A stretch of DNA of 60,510 bases from a virus (lineage: Duplodnaviria; Caudoviricetes), in IMG/VR virus record IMGVR_UViG_3300010052_000208, positions 1-60,510 of that record; one strand, 5' to 3'. Of this stretch, positions 1 through 60,149 are shown piece by piece. Under the pieces are notes generated by a model. That model had not been told where the DNA came from. It searched no databases and worked only from the letters and a program-made list of their open reading frames with translations. Made by a program: the position numbers and the translations under genes. The stretch's first letter is position 1. Each line of letters starts with the position of its first letter.

Positions 1-1104
1 TCAGGCCGAATGTGTCCCACGCGAGAACCAGTCGTGGGACACACTGACTCGGCTGATGGCCTTTTCGGCCAGCCGCCAGCGTTCCACCCGCCGCGTGTAA
101 ACCTCGCTCGTCTTGGCCTCCGAGTGACCGAGGATCGCCATGATGTCGTATTGGCTGCAGCCCAGCTCGGCGAGCAGCTCGGCGAGGCCCTTGCGGACCC
201 CATGCGCGGATAGGTGATGAAGGCCGGCGTCCTGGCACCATCGCTTGAACATGGCGGACATGCTATCGCCGCTCGCGTAGGCCTTACCTCCCCTCCCCAG
301 AACGTACGTTGAGCCTTGCACCTTCGGCGCTCTCGTCGCTGCCTTCAGCGGCGGCAGCAACGGCACGGCGACCTCGGTCGAGCCTTTCTTCAGCGGCTGC
401 CAGCGAACCGCCTCGATCCCTTCGATCACGCATTCATGCGCGCGGCCGAGCATCGTGAGGTCTTCGATGCGGCAGCCGGTCCAAAGCAGCACCGACATGG
501 CGACGTGCGGCTTCGTGCCGGGCGCATGCCGGGCGAAGAAAGCCTTCACGTCCGCGGCTTTCCACGGCGTCGCACCCTCCCCCTTCTGGTAGACGGCCTT
601 GATGCCCCGCGCCGGGTTCTCTCGCGTGTGTTTGCGCTCGATCGCCCAATCGTACATCACGGCGACTGCCTCGATGAACGCGTCGGCCTGGGCTGGTGTC
701 GCGCCCATTTCATCGTGCATCTCGATGAGCTTTTCATGCGGGATGAGCATCTTGCGATCGGGATCGGCGGCCAGCCGACCGAGCAGGTTGCGCTTCTTCT
801 TCAGTGTCTTATGGCTGGTCGTCCCGGCCACGACCCGCTTTTCGAGGTATTCGAAATAGGCGTTTACCAGCCAGCCAATCGACTTCGGCTTCGCGTAGTC
901 GGAGGCTGCCTTCAACGGTTCGGGCGTCTCGCCACGCCGAGCTGCAAGATACTGGCGCTGGAAATCGTCGTGGCCGGGGCCGCAATGGATGCGGATACGC
1001 TTCGCACGATCGCCGGCAGGGCGGACGCGGTAGCGCACGGCGCCCGAGGGCAGCGGCTCGTGCAACAGGCCCGGATAGTCGACTTTCACGGCAGACCTCA
1101 CCAA
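1..1104 (-). CDS. int: Tyrosine recombinase / phage integrase
   Basis: TGCR, HGVRK, LGH and VY catalytic residues (R, HxxR, H, Y). Confidence 0.95.
   Translation of the reverse strand: MVRSAVKVDYPGLLHEPLPSGAVRYRVRPAGDRAKRIRIHCGPGHDDFQRQYLAARRGETPEPLKAASDYAKPKSIGWLVNAYFEYLEKRVVAGTTSHKTLKKKRNLLGRLAADPDRKMLIPHEKLIEMHDEMGATPAQADAFIEAVAVMYDWAIERKHTRENPARGIKAVYQKGEGATPWKAADVKAFFARHAPGTKPHVAMSVLLWTGCRIEDLTMLGRAHECVIEGIEAVRWQPLKKGSTEVAVPLLPPLKAATRAPKVQGSTYVLGRGGKAYASGDSMSAMFKRWCQDAGLHHLSAHGVRKGLAELLAELGCSQYDIMAILGHSEAKTSEVYTRRVERWRLAEKAISRVSVSHDWFSRGTHSA
11..43. repeat. 11-bp perfect inverted repeat at integrase 3' end, possible integrase arm-type sites
   Basis: TGTGTCCCACG (11-21) and CGTGGGACACA (33-43). 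Confidence 0.5.
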
Positions 1105-1307
1105 TCCTTGAGGCCTCCATCCTTTTCGGACACTGGCGCGTCCTCAACGGGCCCGCACCGGATTTCAACTTTTCCACCGCTTATCCACAACGCCTGAACG
1201 TGGTGACCGGTGGCGCGCAGCGCGTTCAGCGCGGCGGTGATCGCAGCCTCGCTTGCGCGCACACGAGTGGCCGGTCGGTCGTCAGTCGAGCTCGACATCG
1301 TGCCCAT
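1098..1307 (-). CDS. Small protein overlapping int start, possible excisionase
   Basis: 69 aa, directly upstream of int; positional call only. Confidence 0.4.
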   Translation of the reverse strand: MGTMSSSTDDRPATRVRASEAAITAALNALRATGHHVQALWISGGKVEIRCGPVEDAPVSEKDGGLKDW

Positions 1308-1839
1308 CCAACCAGAGCCGGTACTTGCCGTCGATCACGCGCCAGATCTCGGCGGCCCGCGGATCGTGATCCAGCATCTTGCGCGTCGTGATCCCGCAGC
1401 GCCGCAGTATCTCGGCGCGGGCTTCCTCGGCTGTTTCGACACCGAGGAGCAGCCGGAAACTGCCTTCACCGCAACAGATCGAGGCACGCTGGGCCAGCGC
1501 ACCGCCCTTCAGGTCTGGTCCCGGCGGCGAAGCTTCGTCTTCGTCCCACGGCGGCGAATCCGAGTCGCTGGCGCCGATCGCGGGCTCTTCAATCTTGGGA
1601 GTTACCTGTGAACCTACTTGCAAGGGAGCTGCCAAGGTTTCGATTGATGGCTCCAGGGCAGGTGCCGCCGCCGGCGGCGACTCCGGGCGGGCTTCTCCCG
1701 GGTTGATCAAGTCGACCTGAAGCCAGCCCGCCAGCGTCACAGTCAGAAGCATCGTGTTCTCGCCTGGGCCGAGCAGGCCGAGCGCATCCGCAACCTCAGC
1801 AGGCGAGAAGTGATGACGGTGGATCACGGTGTGCGTCAC
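1282..1839 (-). CDS. Hypothetical phage protein
   Basis: Overlapping start/stop with neighbours in leftward operon. Confidence 0.7.
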   Translation of the reverse strand: MTHTVIHRHHFSPAEVADALGLLGPGENTMLLTVTLAGWLQVDLINPGEARPESPPAAAPALEPSIETLAAPLQVGSQVTPKIEEPAIGASDSDSPPWDEDEASPPGPDLKGGALAQRASICCGEGSFRLLLGVETAEEARAEILRRCGITTRKMLDHDPRAAEIWRVIDGKYRLWLDGHDVELD

Positions 1840-2198
1840 AGACCAATCTCCTCAAGGAAAGCGTCGAGCCCAGCCGGCTTCTCGGGGTTGAGGTAGAACG
1901 CACGCACGCGGTCCCAATGACGCCGCCAGATGGCCTGCATCTTCGTCGCCATCGTGAAGCTCTGCGGGGCACCGATGTTCGGATGGCCGAACTTGCGCCC
2001 TCTGCGCCGGTACGCGGTCCCCTTGGCTTCAAGCCGCTCGACCAGTTTCCAGCGCCGGCGAAGTTGTCGATCGCGCTGACGAACGGACGCCGGAAGCAGC
2101 TTCCAGCACTTGCCGCAGATCGTTTCCTCGTCCTCGTGCTGGCGCTTGAAGGTCCGACCGCAGCGCGGGTTGAGGCAGGGAGTCCGGCGCTCGGTCAT
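1836..2198 (-). CDS. Hypothetical protein with Cys pairs (possible Zn finger)
   Basis: CLNPRC...CGKC; coupled to neighbours. Confidence 0.65.
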   Translation of the reverse strand: MTERRTPCLNPRCGRTFKRQHEDEETICGKCWKLLPASVRQRDRQLRRRWKLVERLEAKGTAYRRRGRKFGHPNIGAPQSFTMATKMQAIWRRHWDRVRAFYLNPEKPAGLDAFLEEIGL

Positions 2199-2695
2199 AG
2201 GAAGCCCGCCTCCTTGTTCGCCTTAATGGCAGCGCGGCCAACCTTGCAAGCGCGCCGCAGGTCTGACCGATCTTCCATCGTGGCATATTCCAGAGCGAAT
2301 AGCGCCTCCGAGAGGTCGTAGGCATCGGCCGCGTTGCCTGGGCGAACACCATTCTCCTCGAAGTAACCGATCTCCTCCCACGCACCATAGGAAAGCAGCG
2401 AGCAGGCGAGCCTTGCCCCGCACTGGGTACAGGAGATGAGAGTGTCGTGCTCAGACGACCACCCACCGTCGAGGATATAGTCGCGGCGCTTGCCCCGATC
2501 GCGCTCGCGGCGACGCAGGTGCCGAACCATGAACGTGCCGCAGTCTCGGCACCACTCGTTGTTGCCGTGGTGGGTCTGATACTCGCCGCGGGGCGTGGAA
2601 ATCCAGTAAGCGGCCTTTACCTGCGCCTGCTTTGCCAGCGGGTAGAGCGCGTCAGCAAGTTCGCGAAGCTCGGGTGTGTGGACGATATCAGGCAT
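2195..2695 (-). CDS. Hypothetical protein with two CxxC motifs
   Basis: CRDC and CTQC; coupled to neighbours. Confidence 0.65.
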   Translation of the reverse strand: MPDIVHTPELRELADALYPLAKQAQVKAAYWISTPRGEYQTHHGNNEWCRDCGTFMVRHLRRRERDRGKRRDYILDGGWSSEHDTLISCTQCGARLACSLLSYGAWEEIGYFEENGVRPGNAADAYDLSEALFALEYATMEDRSDLRRACKVGRAAIKANKEAGFL

Positions 2696-3062
2696 CGGAC
2701 CTGGCCTCTCCCCATCGGATCAGGACCCCGGTGAACTCATCGATCCCGGGATGGTGCTCTCGCCAGAACGCCTTCAGGTCAGCCCAGTCGGCGAAGCCAT
2801 CAAGCATTGCGAAGTGATCGAGGTTGGCGAAGGCGACATCAGGGACGAGCACCGCGTCTCGATCGAGGACCAGCGTGATCGGCAGGACATCGCGGCAGAC
2901 CGTGCGGGCGACCAGCTCGCACTGCTTCGTCCGCATCCCGGTGTATAGCTGCAGGTCCTCGCCGACGCGCGCATGGCGTTTTCTGGGCGCGCGAATGGTC
3001 TGCCGCTTCACGCCGGAGCGGATCGGGACAACGAACCGGCGCTGGAAGGAATAGGCAACCAT
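2688..3062 (-). CDS. ASCH domain protein
   Basis: F..PIRSGVKRQTIR...LQLYTGMRT...FAMLDGF pattern. Confidence 0.75.
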   Translation of the reverse strand: MVAYSFQRRFVVPIRSGVKRQTIRAPRKRHARVGEDLQLYTGMRTKQCELVARTVCRDVLPITLVLDRDAVLVPDVAFANLDHFAMLDGFADWADLKAFWREHHPGIDEFTGVLIRWGEARSDA

Positions 3063-3080
3063 CTGACGCGCCCTGTGCTG

Positions 3081-3518
3081 CTAATTGACCGCGGCGCCAG
3101 CAGGGGCGCCCCGCTTCCGACCGAGACCCATCTTGCGCGCCAGTTCCGACCGCGCGCTGGCGTAGTTCGGCGCCACCATCGGGTAGCTGGGATCTAGACC
3201 CCACTTCTCGCGATACTGCTCGGGGGTCAGGCTGTAGTGCACGCGGATATGGCGCTTCAGCGATTTGAACTTCTTGCCGTCCTCGAGACAAATGATGAAG
3301 TCGTCGTGCACGGACCTCTTCGGGTTGACGGCCGGCTTCAACTCCGCTGCCGAAGCTGCGGGTGCGGCCGTCACCAGCGGCGCAGCGATGGCCGCGCGTG
3401 TCTGCTGAATGAACGACGGAACTTCCTCGCGCGTGATCAGGCGATTGGCGATCGCCGCAACGACGATATCGGCGGTGGCCATGATGACCTCGGTATCGGG
3501 ATTGAACTCGTCTGACAT
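3081..3518 (-). CDS. mucR: Ros/MucR family zinc-finger regulator
   Basis: ICLEDGKKFKSLKRHIRVHYSLTPEQYREKWGL..YPMVAPNY signature. Confidence 0.95.
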   Translation of the reverse strand: MSDEFNPDTEVIMATADIVVAAIANRLITREEVPSFIQQTRAAIAAPLVTAAPAASAAELKPAVNPKRSVHDDFIICLEDGKKFKSLKRHIRVHYSLTPEQYREKWGLDPSYPMVAPNYASARSELARKMGLGRKRGAPAGAAVN

Positions 3519-3531
3519 TGCCTTCTCCTTT

Positions 3532-3795
3532 TCAGCTGCTGTGTTTGCCGGTGAACCCGGTTTCGATCATCTTCTCGACAGCGGCCTGGCATCTGAGCCG
3601 GTCGCCCATCGCGCCTGTTCGGCCATAGGCCGTGCGCCCGTAGTAGGGGGATTCATCACCGCCGAATTGCTGGACGACGCCGATGACATCGCAGGCATCA
3701 TTGCGGAGTTCCCAGGCGGCGATCCTCATGAAAGGCTCGCAATCGCACGACGCCTCGCCATGCTCTCGGCAGGTGGCTTTCGCTTGCCAGCTCAT
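3532..3795 (-). CDS. Hypothetical protein
   Basis: Coupled ORF in leftward operon. Confidence 0.55.
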   Translation of the reverse strand: MSWQAKATCREHGEASCDCEPFMRIAAWELRNDACDVIGVVQQFGGDESPYYGRTAYGRTGAMGDRLRCQAAVEKMIETGFTGKHSS

Positions 3796-4031
3796 GCCGC
3801 CCGACCTCCGGCTCCCCGATTGAGCAGCACCTCAAGGTACGAAACGGTGTCACGAGCGAAGCGTTGATGCTCGCGCCAAAAGGCTGCCCCTTGACGGATT
3901 TCCGCATCGGTAACGCCGGAAGCAGGCGATGCGTTGTGGCGCGCCACAAGCTCGTCGATCTCGTCGCCGCATTCCTTGGCACGTTCGCGCCAATGCTCGA
4001 TGAGTTCCGGCAGGGGCGTCATTACCGCCAC
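3792..4031 (-). CDS. Hypothetical protein
   Basis: Coupled ORF downstream of ssb. Confidence 0.55.
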
Positions 4032-4519
4032 TCCGGACCGAACGGTATCTCGTCGTCGAGCTCGCGCGACGATCGGCTGCTGGTACCGCCGCTGCTACGC
4101 CCGAAGTCCCCGCCGCTGGAGCGGTCGTCTCGGCGATCATCCCGCCGATCGCCGCCGCCATCGCCCTGCCCGCGCGAATCCAGCATCTGAAGCTCGCCGC
4201 GGAACTTCTGCAGCACGATCTCGGTCGTGTAACGCTCGACGCCGTCCTTTTCCCATTTCCTGGTCTGAAGCTGGCCCTCGATGTAGACCTTCATGCCTTT
4301 CTTCAGGTATTGCTCGGCGACCTTGGCGATGTTCTCGTTGAATATCACCACCTGATGCCACTCGGTCTTTTCCTTGCGTTCGCCAGAATTCTTGTCCCGC
4401 CAGCTCTCGGACGTGGCTATGCGGAGGTTGACGACGGCGTCACCGCTGTTCATGCGCCGTATTTCCGGGTCGGCGCCGAGATTGCCGACCAGGATGACCT
4501 TGTTGACGCTGCCTGCCAT
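4022..4519 (-). CDS. ssb: Single-stranded DNA-binding protein
   Basis: [16 protein letters not shown]-terminus, acidic DDEIPF tail. Confidence 0.97.
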
Positions 4520-6280
4520 TTACTTCGTGCCTCCTGAGAATAGAAAATCTGCTGCGCGGACCATGCTGCCCGGCAAGGGGTCGATAAAACCAAGCCGGGA
4601 TACCTTGCCGACGTAGACGCCGAGGGTACTGGCTGTGCGCGACAACCCCATCTTGTCGGCCAGATCGCCGCGGCTGATCGGTTCGGGGTAAGCGGAGACG
4701 ACCAAGTCGAAGACTCGCGCCGGCTGCGCTTCCAGGAGCGCGCGGGCCATCGAGAGGACAGTCAAGCCTGCGGGCACCTTCCCTGCGGACATGCCGGCCG
4801 GCGTAGCCCGGATATGGCCTGGCGCGCCGGCTTCGACTAGACCGCGCTCGACCAGCTTTCCAATGTAGACCCCGAAGGTCGAGGCTGTCGGGCTCAGACC
4901 GGCGGTGATCGCGGCCCGTGTCCTGGCAACTTCGTCGAAGCCGATCGAATGCCACCAAACTATCGAATCGAGGGCGCGTTGAAGCGAGGCAGGCAGATCG
5001 CCGGGCTGGCTTTGGGTAGCCAGTTGACCTGAGATGGTCATTTCGGGAATCTGGTTTACCGAAGGCGATTTCGGGCTTTTGGCTGCCGGGGCAGGATTCG
5101 AACCTGCGGTCGGAGATCCAAAGTCTCCTGCCTTACCGCTTGGCGACCCGGCATCATTCAGTTGCGGAAGCGCCAGCACGCTCGTGATGGCATCCCGAAC
5201 GGAGCCGAGCTCGCGCGTCACCAGATGGGCGATGAGCGCCCGACCCTCTCGATTGCCTTCCGTCCAACCTCTCTCGTACCCGCGCTTCTCAGCCGCTTCG
5301 ATTGCCGCCGGATCGGGCATGTCGTGTTTTGGACTTTTATTTAATGCCGCAGTCAGCCTGGTGATCTCAGCCTTGAGCTTCGTGGGGTCGTTGGCCTCAG
5401 CCTCTTTGACTGCGTCGCCGATGATCGAGCGCAGTTCGTCCTGGTCGACAGGCGCGGTGTTGACGTCGACCTCGATGCCGTCGCGCGTCGGTGTCGCGGT
5501 GTTGTCGTAGGTTTTAAACTTCGGAAAGGCGATCTTCTCAAAGATACGGGCCTCGCCGGAGCAAACCCAGCCCGTCCCGGTCGGCAGCGACGAAAGGGAA
5601 CTCGCGACCGCATCCAGCGTATCCTTGCCAACGTTCGCCTTCAGCCATTTGATGACAGGCTCCTGGTCGGCCGGTGTTGTGAGACGATGCGTGATCACGG
5701 TCTCGCAGCTGCCTAAGACGGCATTGTGCAGCGCCTGCGTGCGCTGGGTGGCGACGACCAACCTGATACCTTTCGACCGGCCCGCCGTCGCCAGCTTCTT
5801 CATCCAGTGGATGGTCAGGTTTTCGACGCCGATGCCGGCGCGCTCCTTGGGCGCGAACTCGTGGGCCTCTTCAATCACGAGATAGATGACGCCCCGCGCG
5901 AACCGCATCAACGCCGGTGCGAAGTCGACAAAGAACCGCTGCAGCCCACCGGGCTCGAAGTCGGCCATGTCGATGATCGAGAGGGGGAGTTTGCCTTCCC
6001 CAACAAGCCGACCGATCACCTTGCCGGCAGACGAATGCAGGGGGACGTGGCCGCGCGGCCCGCCGAGTATCTTGAACGGCAGCCCCGGCTTCTTGCCGTC
6101 GCCGCTTGAGGTGATGCCCCACCAGTCCGACTTGATCGAGTCGAGGACGCAGACCCGGAAGCCGCCGGCAACAACTTGCTCGATCGCAAGCTTTTCGGTC
6201 GAAGTCTTGCCGCTGCCTGTCTTGCCGAGGATGGCGGTATGCTGCGCCAGCACGGCATCGGGAATCGGGTGGGGCATCAT
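4520..6280 (-). CDS. HerA/FtsK-like (DUF87-type) ATPase with probable C-terminal winged-helix domains
   Basis: Walker A GKTGSGKT, Walker B LVIEEAH, ATQR motif. Confidence 0.85.
   Translation of the reverse strand: MMPHPIPDAVLAQHTAILGKTGSGKTSTEKLAIEQVVAGGFRVCVLDSIKSDWWGITSSGDGKKPGLPFKILGGPRGHVPLHSSAGKVIGRLVGEGKLPLSIIDMADFEPGGLQRFFVDFAPALMRFARGVIYLVIEEAHEFAPKERAGIGVENLTIHWMKKLATAGRSKGIRLVVATQRTQALHNAVLGSCETVITHRLTTPADQEPVIKWLKANVGKDTLDAVASSLSSLPTGTGWVCSGEARIFEKIAFPKFKTYDNTATPTRDGIEVDVNTAPVDQDELRSIIGDAVKEAEANDPTKLKAEITRLTAALNKSPKHDMPDPAAIEAAEKRGYERGWTEGNREGRALIAHLVTRELGSVRDAITSVLALPQLNDAGSPSGKAGDFGSPTAGSNPAPAAKSPKSPSVNQIPEMTISGQLATQSQPGDLPASLQRALDSIVWWHSIGFDEVARTRAAITAGLSPTASTFGVYIGKLVERGLVEAGAPGHIRATPAGMSAGKVPAGLTVLSMARALLEAQPARVFDLVVSAYPEPISRGDLADKMGLSRTASTLGVYVGKVSRLGFIDPLPGSMVRAADFLFSGGTK
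5080..5153 (-). tRNA. tRNA-Gln(UUG) with encoded CCA, inside the ATPase CDS on the same strand
   Basis: Minus strand reads TGCCGGG TC GCC AAGCGGTAA GGC A GGAGA CT TTG GA TCTCC GACC GCAGG TTCGAAT CCTGC CCCGGCA G CCA; all four stems fully paired. Confidence 0.9.
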
Positions 6281-6291
6281 CAACGCAGCCC

Positions 6292-6483
6292 CTATGCCGA
6301 GACCAGTTCGAAGCGGTCGCCGGCCTTGTCGGTGACGACCGGCCCCTTCCCCTTCTTGCCGGCTTCGATGACGGGGACGCCGACGACCTTCAGGGCGGTG
6401 CCCTTGGCGTCGAACCCGCTGATCGAGATCGAGTTCGTCGACCTCTTGGCCGACCAGTTGAAAACCTTCTTCGGTGCTGCCAT
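6292..6483 (-). CDS. Hypothetical protein
   Basis: AAGGAG RBS, 63 aa. Confidence 0.7.
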   Translation of the reverse strand: MAAPKKVFNWSAKRSTNSISISGFDAKGTALKVVGVPVIEAGKKGKGPVVTDKAGDRFELVSA

Positions 6484-6505
6484 TTCCGTGCTCCTTTTGC
6501 GCGGC

Positions 6506-6709
6506 TCAGTGGGGTTTTTGCGTTACCGGCGCGCCGCGTTGGCGCCGGCAGCTTTCCTCGATAGTCGCCATGAGATCAGCGGCGACTCCATCGATGTCGG
6601 TCGGGATGGCTTCCGCAAACATTTTGCCGTTCCGCCAAAGCCCTATGTGCACGGAATGGCAGTGTTCGCAGAGGAAGAAGTTGATGCTCTGAGCGAGCTT
6701 GGGTTTCAT
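6506..6709 (-). CDS. Hypothetical protein with CxxC motif
   Basis: TGATG overlap with helicase gene. Confidence 0.6.
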   Translation of the reverse strand: MKPKLAQSINFFLCEHCHSVHIGLWRNGKMFAEAIPTDIDGVAADLMATIEESCRRQRGAPVTQKPH

Positions 6710-7842
6710 CACATCACCACCGTGAGTTTTTCGGCCGCGCGCGTGATCCCGGTGTAGAGCCACCGCATCCGGTCCGTGCTGAATGATCCAGATTCATCGA
6801 ACAGGCAGACGTGATCCCACTGGCTGCCCTGGCTCTTGTGCACCGTGAGTGCATAGCCGTAGTCGAATTGCTGCGTACCCCGGAGTTCCTTCCAAGGAAC
6901 CTCGTTGCCGCGCCCCTCGAAGAATTCCTCCCGCACCCGGACATCGACGGGCGTCGTCGATTCGAAATCGAGCGAGGTCACGAACATCCGGACGGAGTGA
7001 TCGTTGAGGCTGCCGCGGCGTCGCTTCTTCAACTCGACCACCCGCCACAGCCCGCCGTTGAAGATGCCCTTGTTGCGATCGTTCTTCAGGCAGACCAGCT
7101 GTTCGCCGACCTCGGGCATCGGGCTCACGAAGCCCTTCAGGTGGCGCATGCGGCCGTTGTACTGCGCCCGCGTCTTGTTGAGCCCGACGAGGACTTGATC
7201 GGCGGCCAGGACATCGTCTTGACCGAGGTCAGCCCTCTGAATGATCCTGCTATCCCCGTGGACGCCGTATTCGAGACGGCCGCCTTCACGGACATGCGTC
7301 GCCAGCCTGACTATAGGGTTCTCTGCCGCTTGACGATGGATCTCGGTCAGCATCACGTCGGGATCGGCGTCGGTGAAGAACCCGCCGCCGGTACCCTTCA
7401 CCGGCGGCAGTTGCGCGGGATCGCCGAGGACGAGGACAGGGACGCCGAACGAGAGCAAGTCCTTGCCGATCTCGGCGTCGACCATGGAGCACTCATCGAT
7501 GACAAACAGCGCGACATGGGAGAGATCGTCGACGTCCTTCAGGACGAACTTCTTAACCCCGGTGTCGGCATTGAAATCGACGTTGTAGATCGTGGCGTGG
7601 ATCGTCATGGCGTTGTGACAGCCATTGCGGCGCATCACCATCGCGGCCTTGCCGGTGTAGGCTGCGTACAGAACGTCACCGTTCAGGCCTTCGGCGAAGT
7701 GCCTGGCAAGGGTCGTCTTGCCGGTCCCGGCGTAGCCGAAGACGCGGAAGACCTGACGGCGATCGAGCCCGCTGTCATACCAGCGAGAGACCGCGTCGAG
7801 CGCTGCGGCCTGTTGGGGCGACCAGGAGCGCGACTCGGTCAT
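6709..7842 (-). CDS. RecD/Dda-like superfamily 1 helicase
   Basis: GYAGTGKT, DECSM, GDPAQLPP, HRQA, YALTVHKSQGS, YTGITRA. Confidence 0.93.
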   Translation of the reverse strand: MTESRSWSPQQAAALDAVSRWYDSGLDRRQVFRVFGYAGTGKTTLARHFAEGLNGDVLYAAYTGKAAMVMRRNGCHNAMTIHATIYNVDFNADTGVKKFVLKDVDDLSHVALFVIDECSMVDAEIGKDLLSFGVPVLVLGDPAQLPPVKGTGGGFFTDADPDVMLTEIHRQAAENPIVRLATHVREGGRLEYGVHGDSRIIQRADLGQDDVLAADQVLVGLNKTRAQYNGRMRHLKGFVSPMPEVGEQLVCLKNDRNKGIFNGGLWRVVELKKRRRGSLNDHSVRMFVTSLDFESTTPVDVRVREEFFEGRGNEVPWKELRGTQQFDYGYALTVHKSQGSQWDHVCLFDESGSFSTDRMRWLYTGITRAAEKLTVVM

Positions 7843-15993: not shown

Positions 15994-16295
15994 TGCGGCC
16001 GGCGATCAAGGACGTGGAGCCATCGGTCAGGCGAACGATCGAAGACTGGCTGCGGGAGAACGGCGGACCCCGCCGCTTTAAGCAGGGTACATCGAACGAC
16101 TTCGACGCCGTCAGGCATTACCTGGCCGAGCGGGGCTACGGTGCCAAGTTCTCACAGCGCGGCGACGTCGCCGTCGAGAAGGCCGGCGAGAAAACGCGCA
16201 AGCTGACCGTCGCCGCGTTCTTCCGGTTCGTCGATACGATCCGCATTTCCGAGGGCCTGGAGCCCTATCTCGCGCCGGCGGGTGACCGGCCATGA
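15993..16295 (+). CDS. Hypothetical protein
   Basis: Coupled at both ends. Confidence 0.7.
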   Translation: MRPAIKDVEPSVRRTIEDWLRENGGPRRFKQGTSNDFDAVRHYLAERGYGAKFSQRGDVAVEKAGEKTRKLTVAAFFRFVDTIRISEGLEPYLAPAGDRP

Positions 16296-17629
16296 GCCCA
16301 GCGATCGCCAAATGGGAGCGGATGTCGCTGGAGCGGCAGACCGCCGCTGTCCGCGAGCTGCTTGCCCAGGATCAGGCCCCTAGCACGATCGCCTTCAAGC
16401 TGAAGGCTCCCCGCAAGGAAGTCGATCGGCTCTCCGCGCTGATCCGGCGCGAAGGGTGGGCCAAGTCAGAAGATCAGGAATCGCAAAGCGGCGAAGGCGA
16501 CGCGGTACCGCCGACGCCATCCTTGGGAGCGTCGCCGGCCGGGCGCGACAGCGATGAAAGCCCGGCAGCCGACGAGGTGAGCGCTGGCCCGGGAGGGCAG
16601 CCGAACCCCGCAAATGGGCAAATTGCCCCGGTATCCAATCCGGCCCTCGTCGGCGACCCCAATCCCGTAGCGAAAGCCTCCGAGGACAACGGCAGGATCA
16701 GCGGCGTGGCCGCCCCTGCGACGGGAGAGGCGAGTAGGCAACGTCGGCGGAGGCGTGACGGCGGGGAGAGACCCGCACCCAATTTGCCGGAAACGGCATC
16801 CGAGTCAGGCGGGTTCGACTCCCGCTCGTTGACCGAGGTCGTGGTGAGATCGCGGGTTCAAGTCCCGCCCGGCGATGCCTTCGGGGTCGCTAAGGGAGGC
16901 CCCACCGGTATGGGGCGGTCTGACGGCCGGGAAAGACCGGCAACCCGTTCAGAGAAACCGGCCACCTCCTCCCGGTCGGCGCCCGAGGCGGCACCTCCTC
17001 CCGCCGTCTCGGGCAATCTTCCGGCAGCGCCTGATCCATCGATCCCATGGACGATGCTCAGCTCGCGACAGAAGGAAGCCGCCGTGCTGCCATTGGCAAA
17101 GGCCGGGCTGTCAGCCTCCGCGATCGCCAGCAGACTCCGGCTCGACAGCCGCAATCAGGTTATCACCGTGATCGCGCGGCTTCAGGTAGCGGGCCATCTG
17201 CCGCCAGCCGGGTCGGCGAGGGGCGCAAGGACGCCGCGGTCAACGAAGGTGGCGGCACCCAAGATTGCAAAACCATCGCCGCTTTTGGCTGTCCTCCCAG
17301 GCGGGAAGCCGAAAACCAACCAGTTTGATTTCAAGCAGCGCGCGGCCGACCGCGCCTCATCACAGGGCCTTGCGCCGCATCTCATCGCCGGCGACGCGCG
17401 TGAGCCCATCCTCCTTGAGGTCCCGCAATCGCGCCGGCTGACCCTCCTGCAGCTCACGGAGCAGACCTGCAAGTGGCCGGCAGGCGATCCGCTTAGCGAC
17501 GACTTCTCGTTTTGCGGGACCGCCACCGGCGAGTTCGGCCCGTACTGCTCCTACCACAGCAGCCTGGCTTACACGCCGGCTAACCAACGTCAGAAAGCCG
17601 GGCTGCGCTCGGCGGAAAGGATTCGCTGA
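16292..17629 (+). CDS. gcrA: GcrA-family regulator with extra N-terminal HTH and long linker
   Basis: GLSASAIASRL..SRNQVI HTH; LLQLTEQTCKWPAGDP..FSFCG..PYCSYH...AY C-terminal domain. Confidence 0.88.
   Translation: MSPAIAKWERMSLERQTAAVRELLAQDQAPSTIAFKLKAPRKEVDRLSALIRREGWAKSEDQESQSGEGDAVPPTPSLGASPAGRDSDESPAADEVSAGPGGQPNPANGQIAPVSNPALVGDPNPVAKASEDNGRISGVAAPATGEASRQRRRRRDGGERPAPNLPETASESGGFDSRSLTEVVVRSRVQVPPGDAFGVAKGGPTGMGRSDGRERPATRSEKPATSSRSAPEAAPPPAVSGNLPAAPDPSIPWTMLSSRQKEAAVLPLAKAGLSASAIASRLRLDSRNQVITVIARLQVAGHLPPAGSARGARTPRSTKVAAPKIAKPSPLLAVLPGGKPKTNQFDFKQRAADRASSQGLAPHLIAGDAREPILLEVPQSRRLTLLQLTEQTCKWPAGDPLSDDFSFCGTATGEFGPYCSYHSSLAYTPANQRQKAGLRSAERIR
16496..16942 (+). ncRNA. Putative structured RNA array inside gcrA linker
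   Basis: About 10 consecutive stem-loops with GAAA, GGGA and UUCG tetraloops and two T-arm-like hairpins. Confidence 0.5.
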
Positions 17630-56112: not shown

Positions 56113-56822
56113 TGCCCTATGTCGTAAAGAAGCGCACCTTCACCTATGCGACCGCGCACGCCACGCTCAACACGCTCGATTACTATGAACCCAAGGGCCT
56201 GCTCGGGCAGAAGCCTGCGGTCATGTTCATCATTGGCGGGGGGTTTTCGTCAGCTTCCGCGACCAACCGGGCAAAGTGGGACGCGGAGTGCAATGAGCTT
56301 GCATCGATAGGCTACGTCTGCACAACCATCTCCTATCGCGGCGGCTCCAGCTACCACTTGCCGGAGACAATGGTGGACGTGAACGCCGCGCTCGACTGGA
56401 TGAAGGGGCACCAGGATGTAGACCCCGCTCGTATCTGCGCATGGGGTCGGTCTGCCGGCTCTTTTATGGCGGCGCAGCTTGGCAACGAGGCCAAGGTGAA
56501 GCTGTTCATGGGCGAGTGCGGCCCCTACGATCTGGTTGGCATCACTGAGCCCGACGCGGTTGCGTGGCTTGATGGGGCAGACCCGGCGGTTGTCTCGCCT
56601 CGCTACAACGTCACGGCTTCCGCATCCCGCTCAATGCTTGTTCACGGCACTGCCGACACGACGGTTTTGCCTGTGCAGAGCGCCAACATGAAAGCGGCGC
56701 TCGATGCCGCCGGGGTTCCCTGCACCTTGCGGACGCACAGCGGCGGGCATGGAACCCTCAATTCGTCGGTACGGCCTGCCTTCTGGACAGCGCAGAAGGC
56801 GTTCCTGGCGTCCTATCTGTGA
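56109..56822 (+). CDS. Alpha/beta hydrolase (esterase-like)
   Basis: GGGF oxyanion loop, GRSAG nucleophile, HGTAD, GGH. Confidence 0.88.
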   Translation: MMPYVVKKRTFTYATAHATLNTLDYYEPKGLLGQKPAVMFIIGGGFSSASATNRAKWDAECNELASIGYVCTTISYRGGSSYHLPETMVDVNAALDWMKGHQDVDPARICAWGRSAGSFMAAQLGNEAKVKLFMGECGPYDLVGITEPDAVAWLDGADPAVVSPRYNVTASASRSMLVHGTADTTVLPVQSANMKAALDAAGVPCTLRTHSGGHGTLNSSVRPAFWTAQKAFLASYL

Positions 56823-56956
56823 CAGCCAGCGAAGAGTGCATTGCCAAGGGTAAGCGACGGCGTATCGGCCTCACAGACCGGCGGCGCGTACCAGAACACC
56901 AACCCGGTCAGGACCAACAGCGCTGCCACCGCGACACCTGTCAGACGAAAAGCCAT
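56813..56956 (-). CDS. 47-aa reverse-oriented membrane peptide (not in ORF track)
   Basis: MAFRLTGVAVAALLVLTGLVFWYAPPVC...GCHR; G-rich RBS. Confidence 0.55.
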   Translation of the reverse strand: MAFRLTGVAVAALLVLTGLVFWYAPPVCEADTPSLTLGNALFAGCHR

Positions 56957-57181
56957 GTTAACCCCCGGAACAGAGTCGGGGAGTTCGAAACTCTCGGTGG
57001 AGAGCGCTCGCGCCTTTAGGGATTGCTCCCCTGGACATACGCGCGAGCCTCCCCGACCACTGTTCGGAGAGTGCTGACAACGGCTGCACTGAAGCCGCCA
57101 CCGAGGGGTTTCGACGCCCCAGCCCGCCTACGGCAAGCCGCCGCCTGTCTAACACATCTCCCCGACCGAAAGGAACCTCCC

Positions 57182-57376
57182 ATGCCCAAGGCACCGACCA
57201 AGCTCCAGGTCAACGCGCTGACCGACGCGATGGTGCGCGGCGGCGTGCTGACGAACAAGGACGGCAAGTGGAAGGTCGGCCGCAAGGTCTTCAGCCAGGC
57301 CATCGTCGATGCGGCTAAGGCCCGGATCAACCTCGTCGAGGGCGAAGACGGCTCATGGACGTTCAAGCCGGCCTAG
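57182..57376 (+). CDS. Small basic hypothetical protein
   Basis: AAAGGA RBS. Confidence 0.6.
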   Translation: MPKAPTKLQVNALTDAMVRGGVLTNKDGKWKVGRKVFSQAIVDAAKARINLVEGEDGSWTFKPA

Positions 57377-57378
57377 CC

Positions 57379-57708
57379 ATGCGGCTTGCCCTGCTTGCCG
57401 CCGTGCTCTGGGCCGCGCCGGCGCATGCGGGGACGGCTTCGTGGTACGGGCCGGGCTTCGATGGCGAGGTGACGGCATCGGGCGAAGTGTTTGACCAAGG
57501 GGCTGCAACCTGCGCGCACCGCAGCCTGCCCTTCGGCACGACGGTGCGCGTCACCAATCTCGACAACGGCCGCGCGGCCACCTGCCGGATCTCCGATCGC
57601 GGGCCGTTCGTCCGGGGCCGCGTCATCGACGTCTCGAAAGCCGTGGCCCGCCGGCTCGGCATGCTCCGCGCGGGCCTCGCGCCGGTGACGATCAACATCA
57701 TCAAGTGA
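57379..57708 (+). CDS. RlpA-like (DPBB) lytic transglycosylase with signal peptide
   Basis: GTASWYG, TASGE, AHRSLPFGT, DRGPF, IDVS. Confidence 0.92.
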   Translation: MRLALLAAVLWAAPAHAGTASWYGPGFDGEVTASGEVFDQGAATCAHRSLPFGTTVRVTNLDNGRAATCRISDRGPFVRGRVIDVSKAVARRLGMLRAGLAPVTINIIK

Positions 57709-57719
57709 AAGGAACCGCT

Positions 57720-58847
57720 ATGTTCGACGCGGAAACGATTGCCGGCATCGACAGGATCGCCGCCGCCCTCAAGGTCGAGCCCGCAGCCCTGCAGGCCGTG
57801 GCCGAGGTGGAAAGCGCCGGCAAGGTGTTCGCGCTGGTCAAGGGTCGGCAGGAGCCGGTCATTCGATGGGAGGGCCACTACTACGACCGGCGGCTGAAGG
57901 GCGCTGCGCGCGACCGTGCCCGCGCCGAGAAGCTGGCCAGCCCCACGGCCGGCGCCATCAAGAACCCGGCCAGCCAGGCCAAGCGCTGGGACATGGTGAC
58001 CCGGGCATCGCAGATCGACCGGCATGCGGCGCTGGAATCGTTCTCGATCGGGCTCGGCCAGGTGATGACGGCGCACTGGAAGGCGCTCGGGTTCGCCAAG
58101 GTCGACGACCTCATCAAGGAAGCCCGGCGCGACGCCAAGGGCCAGATCGAACTCATGGTGAAATATTGCGCCGCGTTCGGGCTGATCGACGAGCTGCAGC
58201 GGCTCGACTTCACCGGCTTCGCGCGCGGCTACAACGGGCCGGGCTTCCGCAAGGGCGGCTACCACAAGAAGATGGCGGCGGCCTACAAGCGGCTCTCGGG
58301 CAAGCCCGCGGTGTCGGCCGCGACCGGCATGCTGCGCATGGGCTCGTCGGGCGCGCGGGTGCGCGAGCTGCAGGCCCTGCTGCTGCGCGCCGGCTATGCG
58401 GTGAAGGTCGACGGCGACTACGGCCCCTCGACGCGCGACGCCGTGAAGGGTTTCCAGCGCTCGCAGAAGATTAAGGCCGATGGCGTCGCCGGGCCGGAGA
58501 CGTTCCGCCGGCTGGAGAACTGGAAGGTCACGCCGGAAGAGAAGGTCGGCCAGCAGAAGCCTACCGACGTCAAGGAGGTCAAGGATGCGGCCGGCGGCGG
58601 GGTCGTGTTGACCTTGGTGGTCTCGCTGCGCAACCAGATCGCCGAGACGGCGACCAGCCTCACCGGGATCGAGGCGGAGACGGCACAGACGGTTGCCAAC
58701 GTCCTGATGGCCGGTTCTGGCGCCATCGGCGTCGGTCTCGCCGTGTGGGCGTTCTGGGGCTGGGTCAGGAGCAAGCGCACCGACGAGGGCGATGTCGAGC
58801 CGGTGGGGATCGCGCCGGCCGGCGACAGCGATCCGGTGCTGGCGTGA
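57720..58847 (+). CDS. Endolysin: N-acetylmuramidase (DUF3380-like), PG-binding domain, C-terminal TM helices
   Basis: AVAEVES, GLGQVM, FARGYNG; DGDYGPST..AV..FQ...DGVAGP. Confidence 0.9.
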   Translation: MFDAETIAGIDRIAAALKVEPAALQAVAEVESAGKVFALVKGRQEPVIRWEGHYYDRRLKGAARDRARAEKLASPTAGAIKNPASQAKRWDMVTRASQIDRHAALESFSIGLGQVMTAHWKALGFAKVDDLIKEARRDAKGQIELMVKYCAAFGLIDELQRLDFTGFARGYNGPGFRKGGYHKKMAAAYKRLSGKPAVSAATGMLRMGSSGARVRELQALLLRAGYAVKVDGDYGPSTRDAVKGFQRSQKIKADGVAGPETFRRLENWKVTPEEKVGQQKPTDVKEVKDAAGGGVVLTLVVSLRNQIAETATSLTGIEAETAQTVANVLMAGSGAIGVGLAVWAFWGWVRSKRTDEGDVEPVGIAPAGDSDPVLA

Positions 58848-59176
58848 TCTACGCGCTGGCACTTTTGATAGTCGGCCACGCGCTTGCCGATTATCCGCTT
58901 CAGGGCGACTTCCTGGCTAGAGCCAAGAATCGAGCTGCGCCGATCCCGGGCGTGCCGTGGTATCAGGGTCTCGTCAGCCACGCTCTGATCCACGCCGGTT
59001 TTGTCGGCGTCATAACCGGCAGCCTATTGCTTGCGTGCTTTGAACTAATCGCCCACTGCCTCATCGATGACAGCAAATGCATGGGCCGCATTTCCTACAA
59101 CGCCGATCAGGCGCTGCACGTCGCATGCAAGTTGCTCTGGGTCGCGCTGATCCTATCGTTGGGTCCAATGCCATGA
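58844..59176 (+). CDS. DUF3307-like membrane protein
   Basis: GHALADYPLQ, H..ID, DQALH. Confidence 0.8.
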   Translation: MIYALALLIVGHALADYPLQGDFLARAKNRAAPIPGVPWYQGLVSHALIHAGFVGVITGSLLLACFELIAHCLIDDSKCMGRISYNADQALHVACKLLWVALILSLGPMP

Positions 59177-59279
59177 AGCGGCTCGGGTACGCAGTGGCTG
59201 GTGGCGTAGTCGCGCTGGCTCTCGCCGCCGGGGCTGTATGGTGGTGGTTTACGGCGTGCACAGGCTGGGCGTTCTGCTG

Positions 59280-59693
59280 ATGGGCGTGCTTCTCGTCATC
59301 CTGCGTCTCGTCACCGGCACGCTGGGCACCAAGCTTGTCGAGGCCTATCGCATCCGCGAAGCCGCGCAGAACGAAACGCAGCGCCTGATCGCCGATGTCG
59401 CGGTCAAGGACATCGAACGGCAGATGGCCGACCGCGCGGCGGCGAAGGAAATTCGTCTCGCCACCGCCGGGTTCTGGGAGATGCGGCTGATCACCGCGAT
59501 CATCGCCGGCTGCGCGACGGCGCACTATCTCGCCGTGACGCTCGACACGATCGGCCGGTTCGGCTGGGGCATCCCGAAATATCCGCCGCCCTTCGACGAA
59601 TACCAGGGCACCATCCTGCTGTCCTTCTTCGGCGTCCAGGCGGTTGGCATGGGCTTCTCGGCAATCGCAGCGGCAATCAGAGGGCGGAAATGA
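59280..59693 (+). CDS. Holin-like membrane protein
   Basis: Multiple TM segments, ILLSFFG; after endolysin. Confidence 0.6.
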   Translation: MGVLLVILRLVTGTLGTKLVEAYRIREAAQNETQRLIADVAVKDIERQMADRAAAKEIRLATAGFWEMRLITAIIAGCATAHYLAVTLDTIGRFGWGIPKYPPPFDEYQGTILLSFFGVQAVGMGFSAIAAAIRGRK

Positions 59694-60073
59694 CGGATGC
59701 AAGCCTTAACGACATCTACAGGCAGATCGGCGAACTGATCGGATCGATGAAAGGCCTGGTCGGCAACGTCGCCGACCTGAAGATCGCCGCGGCGGCGTCG
59801 GAGGAAAGTGCTGCAGAATACCGTCAGGGCGTGCGCGACGAACTCGGCAAGATCGTGCTGCGCACCACGCATCTGGAAACCGACATGAGCACGGTGAAAG
59901 AAAGCATCGAAAAGATGCGCGGCGTGACGGACGACGTGGTGAAGATGCGGGAGCGCGCGCTGGGCGCCGGAACCGCCGGCAATATCGTCATCAAGATCGG
60001 CGTCGGCGTCGTCGGCATGGTCGGCTGGGTGGCGTGGCTCTACACCTATCTGACCGGCCGGCCGCCGCCGTGA
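59690..60073 (+). CDS. Coiled-coil protein with C-terminal TM helix (lysis-module associated)
   Basis: Typical last gene of alphaproteobacterial prophage lysis cassettes. Confidence 0.55.
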   Translation: MTDASLNDIYRQIGELIGSMKGLVGNVADLKIAAAASEESAAEYRQGVRDELGKIVLRTTHLETDMSTVKESIEKMRGVTDDVVKMRERALGAGTAGNIVIKIGVGVVGMVGWVAWLYTYLTGRPPP

Positions 60074-60149
60074 ACCGCAGTGATCCAATCAGGACGTGTC
60101 GGCGTAAAACCGGTTGCATTTATGGTAGCCGAAGGGGGCGTTGCCGGCC

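What the first reader, a model, noticed from the sequence alone, without database searches (positions are those of the whole stretch)
5080..5153. Perfect tRNA-Gln(UUG) in-frame inside an ATPase gene
Seen: a 74-nt cloverleaf with fully paired acceptor, D, anticodon and T stems, U1-A72, G73 and encoded CCA lies on the coding strand of the HerA-like gene. It is also read as the peptide AGSPSGKAGDFGSPTAGSNPAPAA, in the linker between the ATPase and C-terminal domains. Established: U1-A72 is a bacterial tRNA-Gln determinant, and phage tRNAs can replace host tRNAs cut by anticodon nucleases. Inference: tRNA processing would sever the mRNA, so tRNA and full-length protein may be alternative products, or this is an mRNA-processing switch for the downstream ssb-mucR-int genes.
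Basis: partly seen in the sequence, partly recalled or inferred. Interest (0 to 1): 0.85.

Follow-up and report, generated by a model that had tools for sequence, protein, structure and literature searches.

The report
tRNA gene nested inside phage ATPase gene
A complete glutamine tRNA gene sits in frame inside the floppy linker of a prophage DNA-motor protein gene, and related phages keep this or other tRNAs at the same spot, so the same DNA most likely serves as both tRNA and protein code.

Summary
ARAGORN and Rfam (59.7 bits; cut-off 29) call a 74-nt tRNA-Gln(UUG) at 5080-5153 on the minus strand. It lies in sense and in frame within a 587-codon ORF (6283-4520). That ORF encodes a HerA/FtsK-like ATPase, a helical stretch, a predicted disordered linker (residues 372-427) and two winged-helix domains.

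It is not a fusion artefact:
- The best 120 listed homologues are mostly single proteins of about 550-620 aa, and most lack a tRNA.
- A Logan contig matches the window across the site without a difference.

It is not a one-off:
- A metagenome contig (L130) has the same tRNA-Gln in the linker of a very different ATPase.
- Two viral contigs (L005, L044) have tRNA-Gly(UCC) at the same spot.
- Four database proteins have linkers that back-translate to a full cloverleaf.

Window and L130 differ at 9 of 74 tRNA positions. None breaks a pair and two pairs are swapped on both sides, while the flanks are unalignable. L044's copy has two broken pairs, and some relatives seem to hold only remnants.

Best reading: a selected phage tRNA gene nested in tolerant linker codons and released from the early transcript. 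Expression is untested. This scan saw such nested phage tRNAs before on other DNA. In print I found only selC inside selB.

The parts
5080..5153 (-). tRNA-Gln(UUG), 74 nt, with U1-A72, G73 and an encoded CCA. It is also read as codons 378-401 of the surrounding ORF. Its first and last bases belong to codons 377 and 402.
   Evidence: ARAGORN; Rfam 59.7 bits; translation; covariation with L130, L129 and host tRNA-Gln.
4520..6283 (-). ORF of 587 codons, open through the tRNA: HerA/FtsK-like ATPase followed by two winged-helix domains. The probable real start is an ATG at 6280 or 6277.
   Evidence: Pfam DUF87 26.8 bits against a cut-off of 23.2. The 120 homologues listed mostly cover 96-99% of the query. 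Foldseek top hits are HerA, E 4.2e-10.
5504..6283 (-). ATPase domain, about residues 1-260. The Walker A motif lies near residues 20-27.
   Evidence: AlphaFold2 model with pLDDT mostly above 85 here; invariant columns of alignment A1; HerA structures.
5171..5443 (-). Long helices, residues about 281-371, leading up to the tRNA. The last ~50 residues travel together with the tRNA-Gln in P0099, P0122 and L130.
   Evidence: Secondary structure; identities by domain.
5003..5170 (-). Predicted disordered linker, residues 372-427. It is the hypervariable region of the family and contains the tRNA.
   Evidence: pLDDT below 50 for residues 372-427; unconserved, gap-rich columns in A1.
4544..4990 (-). 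Two tandem winged-helix-like domains, residues about 432-580.
   Evidence: Confident fold; 85% identical to the C-terminus of P0099; conserved in the family.
4022..4519 (-). SSB gene. It starts one base after the ATPase gene's stop codon, so the two are in one operon.
   Evidence: Pfam SSB, E 1.5e-35; sequence.
3081..3518 (-). MucR/Ros-type regulator (context).
   Evidence: Pfam ROS_MUCR, E 5.1e-43.
1..1104 (-). Tyrosine integrase at the very edge of the provirus record. The real attachment site therefore probably lies just outside the window.
   Evidence: Pfam Phage_integrase. The window is a whole IMG/VR provirus record. A Logan contig ends 63 bases beyond the window start.
6709..7842 (-). 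SF1 (RecD/PIF1-like) helicase just upstream in the same leftward early operon (context).
   Evidence: Pfam AAA_30 and UvrD_C_2.

Best explanation
This is a genuine tRNA-Gln(UUG) gene kept by selection and nested, in sense orientation and in frame, in the codons for a disordered linker. The gene around it is a prophage early-operon gene for a HerA/FtsK-like ATPase with two C-terminal winged-helix domains.

The linker tolerates almost any sequence. The tRNA is read in the frame that gives a Gly/Ser/Pro/Ala-rich peptide, so the protein stays intact.

Inferred mechanism, not shown:
- The tRNA is transcribed as part of the leftward early transcript (repressor side, then exonucleases, helicase, ATPase, ssb, mucR and int).
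- It is cut out by RNase P and by 3' processing at its encoded CCA.
- Each transcript so processed can no longer give full-length ATPase. Transcripts covered by ribosomes give protein.
- The tRNA gives the phage its own decoder for Gln codons during lytic growth.

Related phages hold tRNA-Gly(UCC) at the same spot. By back-translation, others hold tRNAs with UUY or CCN anticodons there. Some relatives appear to hold only remnants. The linker therefore acts as a landing pad where tRNA genes are gained, exchanged and lost.
For: Real tRNA.

The fused gene is the ancestral state, and the tRNA lies in its variable, disordered part:
- The 120 listed homologues are mostly 547-621 aa and cover 96-99% of the query.
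- Alignment A1 is hypervariable in the linker.
- pLDDT is below 50 for residues 372-427.

Recurrence at DNA level:
- Of 80 viral loci with a homologue, 2 (L005, L044) carry tRNA-Gly(UCC) inside the gene at the linker, in sense, with the ORF open.
- L087, in a Dongiaceae MAG, has the same tRNA as L005 and was not counted again.
- L130, a metagenome contig, has tRNA-Gln(UUG) at 61.8 bits in the linker of an ATPase only 34% identical to the window's, with the ORF open.

Selection on RNA structure:
- Window and L130 differ at 9 of 74 positions. Four of these make two pairs changed on both sides and one makes a G-U. Four are unpaired and none breaks a pair. This is my count on A5.
- The flanks match at about 13 of 42 columns, my count on A4.
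- On 6 tRNA-Gln sequences (2 embedded, 1 from a phage tRNA array, 3 host), 95.2% of cells pair and 8 pairs change on both sides. The covariation score is 0.451, against 0.133 in shuffles (0 of 500 reach it) and at most 0.127 when partners are slid.
- Compared with 8 Rhizobiales tRNA-Gln, the window's copy has four fully compensated pair swaps.
- CCA is kept in all 4 DNA-level embedded copies.

Protein-level screen:
- P0122 has the same flanks and the same tRNA-coded ends. Its anticodon-stem codons force a different stem that is still complementary.
- Linkers of P0073, P0075 and P0020 also back-translate to a cloverleaf with no mismatch.
- In total, 6 of 125 proteins gave such a hit, all in the linker. 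Shuffles gave 10 of 1000 for whole proteins and 0 of 1000 for linker segments.

Orientation: the antisense strand of these tRNAs is at least as free of stops as the sense strand. Yet all copies found by the two-strand ARAGORN scan are in sense.

Not an assembly error: a 13,667-base Logan contig covers 3258-7000 with 0 differences. That run may be the source sample.
Against: - No RNA evidence of any kind. No mature tRNA, processed ends or charging have been shown.
- No promoter-like site was found in 4300-6600. Expression would depend on an early operon that is probably repressed in the lysogen.
- The arrangement is rare and dispensable. It was seen in 2 of 80 viral loci, in 3 of the 120 listed homologues and in 0 credible cases among 147 further cluster representatives. 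The 2 hits among those 147 both lie in the ATPase domain, at the false-positive rate.
- L044's tRNA-Gly has two broken pairs (11-24 and 29-41) and a poorer fold.
- P0079 and P0099 seem to keep only end fragments of the tRNA-Gln (weak matches, E 0.09 and 0.24). Copies therefore do decay.
- The covariation set mixes embedded and free tRNAs. Only two embedded tRNA-Gln copies are known at DNA level.
- P0020, P0073, P0075 and P0122 are inferred from protein alone.
- The host is unknown, so whether the phage needs this tRNA cannot be judged. CAA is 26% of Gln codons in early genes and 15% in late genes, with no host baseline.
Confidence: 0.6

Rival explanations
1. Neutral passenger. A tRNA gene, probably from a phage tRNA pool, was inserted by chance into a linker that tolerates anything. 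It is not used and is on its way to decay. It looks intact only because the insertion is recent.
For: - Rarity in the family.
- Two broken pairs in L044.
- Apparent remnants in P0079 and P0099.
- No promoter-like site.
- An in-frame, stop-free insert is the only kind that selection on the ATPase gene would let survive.
Against: - Window and L130 sit in ATPases only 34% identical, with unalignable flanks. Yet the tRNA is 65 of 74 identical, and every stem change is compensated or wobble-preserving.
- P0122 shows a third, different but complementary anticodon stem.
- CCA, which takes no part in pairing, is kept in 4 of 4 copies.
Confidence: 0.15
2. DNA-level recombination site. The conserved tRNA sequence serves as a joint for homologous or integrase-mediated exchange. 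That exchange shuffles ATPase heads and winged-helix tails between phages, or the tRNA acts as an attachment site for another element. On this view it does not act as an RNA.
For: Strong mosaicism around the linker:
- The window's ATPase head is 79-83% identical to P0079 and P0073, which carry a remnant or a different tRNA.
- It is only 29-38% identical to P0122, L130 and P0099, which share the tRNA-Gln or its ends.
- Its tail is 85% identical to P0099.

These phages do use tRNA-derived attachment sites next to int.
Against: - A DNA site has no need to keep Watson-Crick complementarity through double changes.
- The provirus ORF is intact, so this is not the site used for integration here. Int lies 3.4 kb away at the record's edge.
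- No second partial copy exists in the window, and no tRNA-like match in 56500-60510.
- The att-like fragments in relatives are of other tRNAs: Pro(UGG)-like in L085, and a different acceptor end in L087.
Confidence: 0.1
3. tRNA-dependent lysogeny. Integration destroys a host tRNA-Gln gene, and the nested copy replaces it in the lysogen (Guerrero-Bustamante and Hatfull 2024; abstract read).
For: - It is a temperate phage with a tyrosine integrase.
- The junction lies outside the window, so the idea cannot be excluded here.
- A Logan contig breaks 63 bases beyond int, as it would at a repeated tRNA.
- Most matching Rhizobiales genomes gave a single match to the tRNA-Gln query (not typed by anticodon). 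Losing such a gene would matter.
Against: - In the two relatives where the site next to int can be read, the tRNA-like fragment is of another isotype than the nested tRNA. L044's phage has a Pro(UGG)-like 5' part against nested Gly. L087 has a 3' end with a different acceptor.
- Those records are circular permutations with tail genes on the other side. The fragments are therefore attP and are long, not the ~10-bp cores of that system.
- The nested tRNA sits in an early lytic operon with no promoter-like site of its own.
Confidence: 0.08
4. Processing switch. The main role of the cloverleaf is as an RNase P cut site that uncouples the stability or translation of the downstream ssb-mucR-int genes from the upstream genes.
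For: - Its position is mid-operon, directly upstream of ssb.
- The published selB/selC case proposes that processing represses the host ORF (abstract).
Against: - A cut site would not need a specific anticodon, identity elements or CCA.
- Different isotypes occupy the site.
- 78 of 80 viral relatives with the same gene manage without it.
- An in-frame ATG 38 bases after the tRNA (5042-5040) is not conserved in L005, L044 or L130.
Confidence: 0.05

Closest known systems
selC (tRNA-Sec) nested inside the selB ORF of Alphaproteobacteria (Mukai 2021, Int J Mol Sci 22:4605, PMC8124441; abstract and outline read)
   Same: - An entire tRNA gene lies in sense inside a bacterial-type protein ORF, in a non-conserved extension.
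- Remnant copies occur in relatives.
- It is a bioinformatic prediction.
- The proposed trade-off is between tRNA processing and full-length protein.
   Different: - There the tRNA lies in a C-terminal extension that overlaps the next ORF's start, and it is the cognate ligand of the host protein.
- Here it lies mid-gene between two folded domains of a phage ATPase with no known link to tRNA-Gln.
- Here several isotypes occupy the same site in relatives.
Ordinary phage-encoded tRNA genes (intergenic clusters; recalled from general knowledge, and seen here in L129)
   Same: - A phage-borne tRNA distinct from the sampled host tRNAs.
- L129's array holds a tRNA-Gln with the same 25-base 5' part and the same acceptor stem.
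- Proposed roles are codon supply or escape from anticodon nucleases (van den Berg 2023, abstract read).
   Different: Those genes lie between ORFs. This one is translated as well.
attP inside a coding gene
   Same: tRNA-derived sequence inside a phage ORF.
   Different: - Those are partial tRNA segments within int, and the gene is split or altered on integration.
- Here the tRNA is full-length with covarying stems, lies 3.4 kb from int, and sits in an ORF that is intact in the integrated provirus.
Nested in-frame tRNAs in other phage genes noted earlier by this scan (e1-931926, e1-3294340, e1-5379051, e1-5878825; AI notes on other DNA, not checked by me)
   Same: An intact tRNA in frame in the linker codons of a phage protein, with swapped or decayed copies at the same spot in relatives.
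   Different: - The host genes differ: amidase, primase-helicase, a small protein, a glycosyltransferase.
- The tRNAs differ.
- Here the host gene is a HerA/FtsK-like ATPase with winged-helix domains, in a temperate alphaproteobacterial-type phage.

Membership tests
tRNA (Rfam RF00005), isotype Gln(UUG) | Cloverleaf scoring above the family's gathering score | tested here: met
   59.7 bits against 29; ARAGORN call.
tRNA (Rfam RF00005), isotype Gln(UUG) | Isotype features shared with cellular tRNA-Gln: U1-A72, D arm, UUG anticodon after U33 | tested here: met
   U-A at 1-72 in 6 of 6 sequences. D arm and T loop are identical to Rhizobiales tRNA-Gln. Positions 32, 37 and 38 and the variable-loop length differ.
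tRNA (Rfam RF00005), isotype Gln(UUG) | Stems kept through compensatory change | tested here: met
   8 pairs changed on both sides; 0 of 500 shuffles reach the covariation score.
tRNA (Rfam RF00005), isotype Gln(UUG) | Transcribed, processed and aminoacylated | not testable with these tools
   No RNA holder listed.
Nested tRNA inside a protein ORF (selB/selC type) | The whole tRNA, in sense, inside an ORF that stays open | tested here: met
   Also L130, L005 and L044.
Nested tRNA inside a protein ORF (selB/selC type) | Remnant copies in relatives | tested here: inconclusive
   P0079 and P0099 keep end fragments at protein level only, E 0.09 and 0.24. Their DNA could not be fetched.
Nested tRNA inside a protein ORF (selB/selC type) | The tRNA is the functional partner of the host protein, and lies in a C-terminal extension overlapping the next ORF | tested here: not met
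   The position is mid-gene (residues 378-401 of 587). The host protein is a DNA-motor ATPase.
HerA/FtsK-superfamily ATPase | P-loop ATPase fold of the HerA type | tested here: met
   Pfam DUF87 26.8 against 23.2 and HerA_C 23.1 against 22. Foldseek top hits are HerA, E 4.2e-10, and STIV2 B204.
HerA/FtsK-superfamily ATPase | Orthology to HerA proper (NCBIfam equivalogs) | tested here: not met
   Best score 47.7 bits against a cut-off of 850. It is a distinct family with 7554 representative clusters at E<=0.001.
tRNA-dependent lysogeny | The phage tRNA has the same isotype as the host tRNA at the attachment site | tested here: not met
   Tested only in relatives. L044's phage has a Pro(UGG)-like fragment against nested Gly, and L087 has a different acceptor end. 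The window's own junction lies outside the record.
attP inside an ORF (SSV1/Mx8 type) | The ORF is split or altered in the integrated state, and the site lies next to int | tested here: not met
   The ORF is intact in a provirus record. Int lies 3.4 kb away at the record's edge.
Phage tRNA with anticodon-loop changes (van den Berg 2023) | The anticodon loop differs from the host's tRNA of the same anticodon | tested here: inconclusive
   The window has C32, G37 and A38 against U32, A37 and U38 in 8 of 8 sampled Rhizobiales tRNA-Gln. L130 has A37 and U38. The host is unknown.

The most novel reading that the evidence does not exclude
Linker codons of phage early genes are a general landing pad for exchangeable tRNA cassettes, and nesting is itself the mechanism. 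The cloverleaf can fold and be cut out only when ribosomes are not covering it. If host tRNA-Gln is depleted, for instance by an anticodon nuclease, ribosomes stall at the Gln codons upstream in the same ORF. The nested tRNA is then exposed and released, and decoding is restored. That would make it a self-sensing tRNA supply built into an mRNA.
Probability: 0.08. Interest if true: 0.9.

Novelty: new variant of a known kind. Interest (0 to 1): 0.66.

Why it matters
Gene finders and curators assume that tRNA genes and protein genes do not overlap, so cases like this are either missed or 'corrected'.

Here one stretch of DNA is under two kinds of selection at once: RNA pairing and an open reading frame. 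The same linker hosts different tRNAs in related phages. If the tRNA is made, every matured tRNA costs one mRNA for a DNA-motor protein. That would be a built-in trade-off or coupling between translation capacity and an early phage function.

With the earlier cases from this scan, it suggests that disordered linkers of phage proteins are a recurrent home for tRNA genes. In the searchable literature I found this described only for selB/selC in bacteria.

It is directly testable. The nested tRNA's acceptor stem differs from the sampled Rhizobiales tRNA-Gln at three pairs, so a specific probe is possible.

Tried and rejected
The only feature is a weak 22-nt pair (73%) just after the tRNA. Rejected.

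Relaxed ARAGORN on 35 linkers gave mostly complementary-strand calls of poor quality, which I treated as noise. blastn-short of those 35 linkers against 51 harvested tRNAs found only L005/L087 and one 17-nt match. Only 35 of 85 loci had both ends recognisable with the window's protein, so the other 50 linkers were not screened this way.

Source of the tRNA:
- Of 401 genomes of the order of Bradyrhizobium embrapense, 242 matched. The best were 83% identical over 69 nt and 86% over 58 nt, and none was near-identical.
- For the tRNA-Gly of L005, the best match in 31 genomes was 84%.
- The 29-nt match in the Dongiaceae MAG (L093) is a tRNA/tmRNA-like 3' end in front of an AT-rich island, not a tRNA-Gly.

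Searches for more copies:
- The exact 25-mer of the 3' part in viral contigs found only L120, an unrelated intergenic tRNA.
- The linker region of the window protein in the 5.8-billion-protein set found only P0122.
- The linker of L005's protein found nothing.
- P0122 in viral contigs found nothing.
- The window protein in 401 genomes of the family matched only the centre genome at E<=1e-80, with only 3 candidates scored per genome.
- GenBank phages gave one distant hit at 29.5% identity.
- Plasmids gave 42 records, all below 60% identity, and I did not check them for tRNAs.

RNA evidence: no RNA holder was listed. The one DNA run (X1, contigs, possibly the source) shows no differences, joints or indels over 1-7000.

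Promoter scan of 4300-6600: 0 sites against 0.2 expected. Three terminator-like sites against 2.4 expected, all on the + strand.

Codon usage could not be interpreted without a host.

Supplementary files of the papers were not consulted. Those of van den Berg 2023 may list tRNA-Gln cases.
Full report
1. THE OBSERVATION

The window is a complete IMG/VR provirus record of 60,510 bases. ARAGORN finds exactly one tRNA in it, tRNA-Gln with anticodon UUG, at 5080-5153 on the minus strand. Rfam's tRNA model scores it 59.7 bits against a gathering score of 29, E 2.1e-10, over the full model. U1-A72, G73 and an encoded CCA are there.

The minus-strand ORF 6283..4520 (587 codons) runs through it without a stop. 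The only correction concerns the D stem. It has three standard pairs plus an A-A, exactly as in all host tRNA-Gln compared.

2. WHAT THE SURROUNDING GENE IS

The N-terminal ~260 residues are a P-loop ATPase of the HerA/FtsK kind.
- Pfam DUF87 and HerA_C score just above their cut-offs.
- The Foldseek top hits of an AlphaFold2 model are HerA hexamers (E 4.2e-10) and the STIV2 packaging ATPase.
- It is not an orthologue of HerA proper: NCBIfam gives 47.7 bits against a cut-off of 850.

Long helices follow (residues 281-370). Then comes a stretch with pLDDT below 50 (residues 372-427), then two confidently folded winged-helix-like domains.

The gene sits in a leftward early operon. The order is: CI-like repressor, YqaJ-type exonuclease, RNase T-like exonuclease, SF1 helicase, this gene, SSB (starting one base after its stop), MucR, and integrase at the record's edge.

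The family is large, with 7554 representative clusters at E<=0.001. It reaches actinobacterial plasmids with the same full-length layout.

3. NOT A FUSION OR AN ERROR

The best 120 of 938 homologues are mostly single proteins of 547-621 aa that cover 96-99% of the query. In an alignment of 36 of them, the two ends are conserved and the linker is hypervariable in length and sequence. The fused gene is therefore the normal state and the tRNA is an insert in its least constrained part. A 13,667-base Logan contig covers 3258-7000 with no difference or indel. That run may be the source sample.

4. RECURRENCE

Among 80 viral loci that encode a homologue, ARAGORN finds 6 tRNAs. Two of them lie inside the homologous gene, at the linker and on the coding strand: tRNA-Gly(UCC) in L005 and in L044. 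Both ORFs are open through the tRNA. L044's gene also carries an intein in the ATPase. L087, from a Dongiaceae MAG, has the same tRNA as L005 and I count it with L005.

An exact search for the tRNA-Gln's 5' 25-mer in 241 million metagenome records gave two places.
- L129 is a phage-like tRNA array.
- L130 has a tRNA-Gln(UUG) (61.8 bits) again inside the linker of an ATPase-winged-helix ORF.

L130's ATPase head is only 34% identical to the window's.

A region-restricted protein search found P0122. It has the same flanking residues and the same tRNA-coded ends.

I then wrote a screen that back-translates each protein into degenerate DNA and asks whether a canonical cloverleaf is possible with no mismatch.
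- It hit 6 of 125 proteins, all in the linker: P0001, L130's product, P0122, P0073 (anticodon UUY), P0075 and P0020 (both CCN).
- Shuffles gave 10 of 1000 for whole proteins and 0 of 1000 for linker segments.
- Among 147 further cluster representatives there were only 2 hits, both in the ATPase domain, which is the false-positive rate.
- With the U8 requirement relaxed, L005 is also recovered, together with several non-linker hits.

The arrangement is therefore real and recurrent, but rare, at a few per cent of the family.

5. IS THE RNA STRUCTURE UNDER SELECTION?

Window and L130 differ at 9 of 74 tRNA positions (my count on A5):
- four make up two pairs changed on both sides;
- one turns C-G into U-G;
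- two are in the anticodon loop;
- one is in the variable loop;
- one is the discriminator.

None breaks a pair.

The flanks match at about 13 of 42 columns (my count on A4). The tRNA is thus far better conserved than the linker around it.

On six tRNA-Gln sequences (two embedded, one from the phage array, three host), 95.2% of cells pair and 8 pairs change on both sides. The covariation score of 0.451 is reached by 0 of 500 shuffles, and the slid controls give at most 0.127.

Against eight Rhizobiales tRNA-Gln, the window's copy shows four fully compensated swaps, with an identical D arm and T loop. P0122's codons force a third anticodon stem that is again complementary.

Against this:
- L044's tRNA-Gly has two broken pairs (11-24 and 29-41) and folds poorly.
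- P0079 and P0099 seem to keep only fragments of the tRNA-Gln. These are weak protein-level matches.
- P0079's tail closely resembles L130's, read by eye.

Copies therefore decay in some lineages.

6. WHERE THE tRNA COMES FROM

No near-identical tRNA-Gln was found in 401 sampled genomes of the order (best 83-86%). The only other exact holder of its 5' half is a phage tRNA array (L129). It therefore looks like a member of a phage-borne tRNA-Gln lineage and not a recent copy of a host gene. The host itself is unknown.

The region is mosaic.
- The window's ATPase head is 79-83% identical to P0079 and P0073.
- It is only 29-38% identical to the other holders of the tRNA-Gln or its ends.
- Its tail is 85% identical to P0099.

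7. RIVALS

- Attachment site. The provirus ORF is intact, and int lies at the record's edge, 3.4 kb away. There is no second copy of the tRNA's 3' part in the window and no tRNA-like match near the right end. In L044's and L087's records the tRNA-like fragments next to int are of other tRNAs. Those records are circular permutations with tail genes on the far side, so the fragments are attP. This also argues against tRNA-dependent lysogeny (abstract read). For the window itself the junction cannot be seen.
- Replication origin in the linker: no iterons.
- Neutral passenger: hard to square with the compensated changes, but not excluded for individual copies such as L044's.

8. HOW IT MOST LIKELY WORKS (INFERENCE)

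The tRNA has no promoter-like site of its own, so it would be made from the early transcript. RNase P and 3' trimming at the encoded CCA would release it and sever that mRNA copy (general knowledge, recalled). Translated, ribosome-covered copies would give the full-length protein.

The frame used gives a Gly/Ser/Pro/Ala-rich peptide that suits a disordered linker. In both Gln and Gly copies the T loop is read in the same frame. The antisense strand would have been at least as free of stops, yet all copies are in sense. That fits a need for transcription, although the number of independent events is small.

The window's anticodon loop differs from the sampled Rhizobiales type at positions 32, 37 and 38. 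This recalls the anticodon-nuclease escape idea (abstract read). But L130 has the common 37 and 38, so I give this little weight.

9. COMPARISON AND NOVELTY

In print I found one case of a tRNA nested in a bacterial ORF: selC within selB. Its author calls it the first such report (Mukai 2021; abstract and outline read). Four full-text searches turned up no phage case.

This scan has noted at least four other phage genes with in-frame tRNAs in linker codons, on other DNA (AI notes that I did not check). I therefore file this as a new variant of a known kind. It is a mid-gene linker of a phage ATPase, with several tRNA isotypes at one site and direct covariation between embedded copies.

Confidence that it is a real tRNA nested in a real ORF is high. 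Confidence that it is expressed and useful is moderate, and nothing is known about expression.

Noticed in passing
window 16947-17020 (+), inside ORF 16292-17629: Weak Rfam matches lie in the linker codons of the GcrA-like gene: CcsR1 at 25.1 bits (E 0.0016, gathering 65.3) and ar14 at 26.2 bits. They are two hairpins with CCUCCUCCC loops. This may be a second small RNA motif nested in a linker of the same prophage.
   Followed up: partly
L044 1546-4284; P0122: Two homologues of the ATPase carry an intein-like insert of about 340 residues right after the Walker B region. It begins with Cys and ends before Cys.
   Followed up: no
L085 1501-1557 (+) beside int 1547-2812 (-); L087 about 17598-17615: The attP regions of two related phages carry tRNA fragments. 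One is the 5' part of a tRNA-Pro(UGG)-like gene up to the anticodon loop. The other is a short 3' acceptor end with CCA. Tail and acetyltransferase genes lie on the far side, so these records are circular permutations.
   Followed up: partly
L120 2270-2345 (-): An unrelated phage contig has an intergenic tRNA, between a scaffold-like gene and a capsid-like gene, that ARAGORN reads with a four-base anticodon. It shares the window tRNA's last 25 bases.
   Followed up: no
L100 (G005:C1:34478-37551): Bradyrhizobium embrapense holds an array of 12 tRNA genes within 2.6 kb, including Gln(UUG), Gln(CUG) and Gly(UCC).
   Followed up: no
L093 about 1500-1560 (-): In the Dongiaceae MAG, a T arm plus acceptor end with CCA and no full tRNA is followed by AT-rich DNA. 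It looks like a tmRNA or tRNA 3' end with an island inserted behind it.
   Followed up: no
window 1-63 and beyond the left end: In run X1 the contig that covers the integrase end stops 63 bases beyond the window's first base. Short high-depth pieces pile up at 3250-3287 and 4476-4513, which suggests repeated sequence at those places.
   Followed up: no
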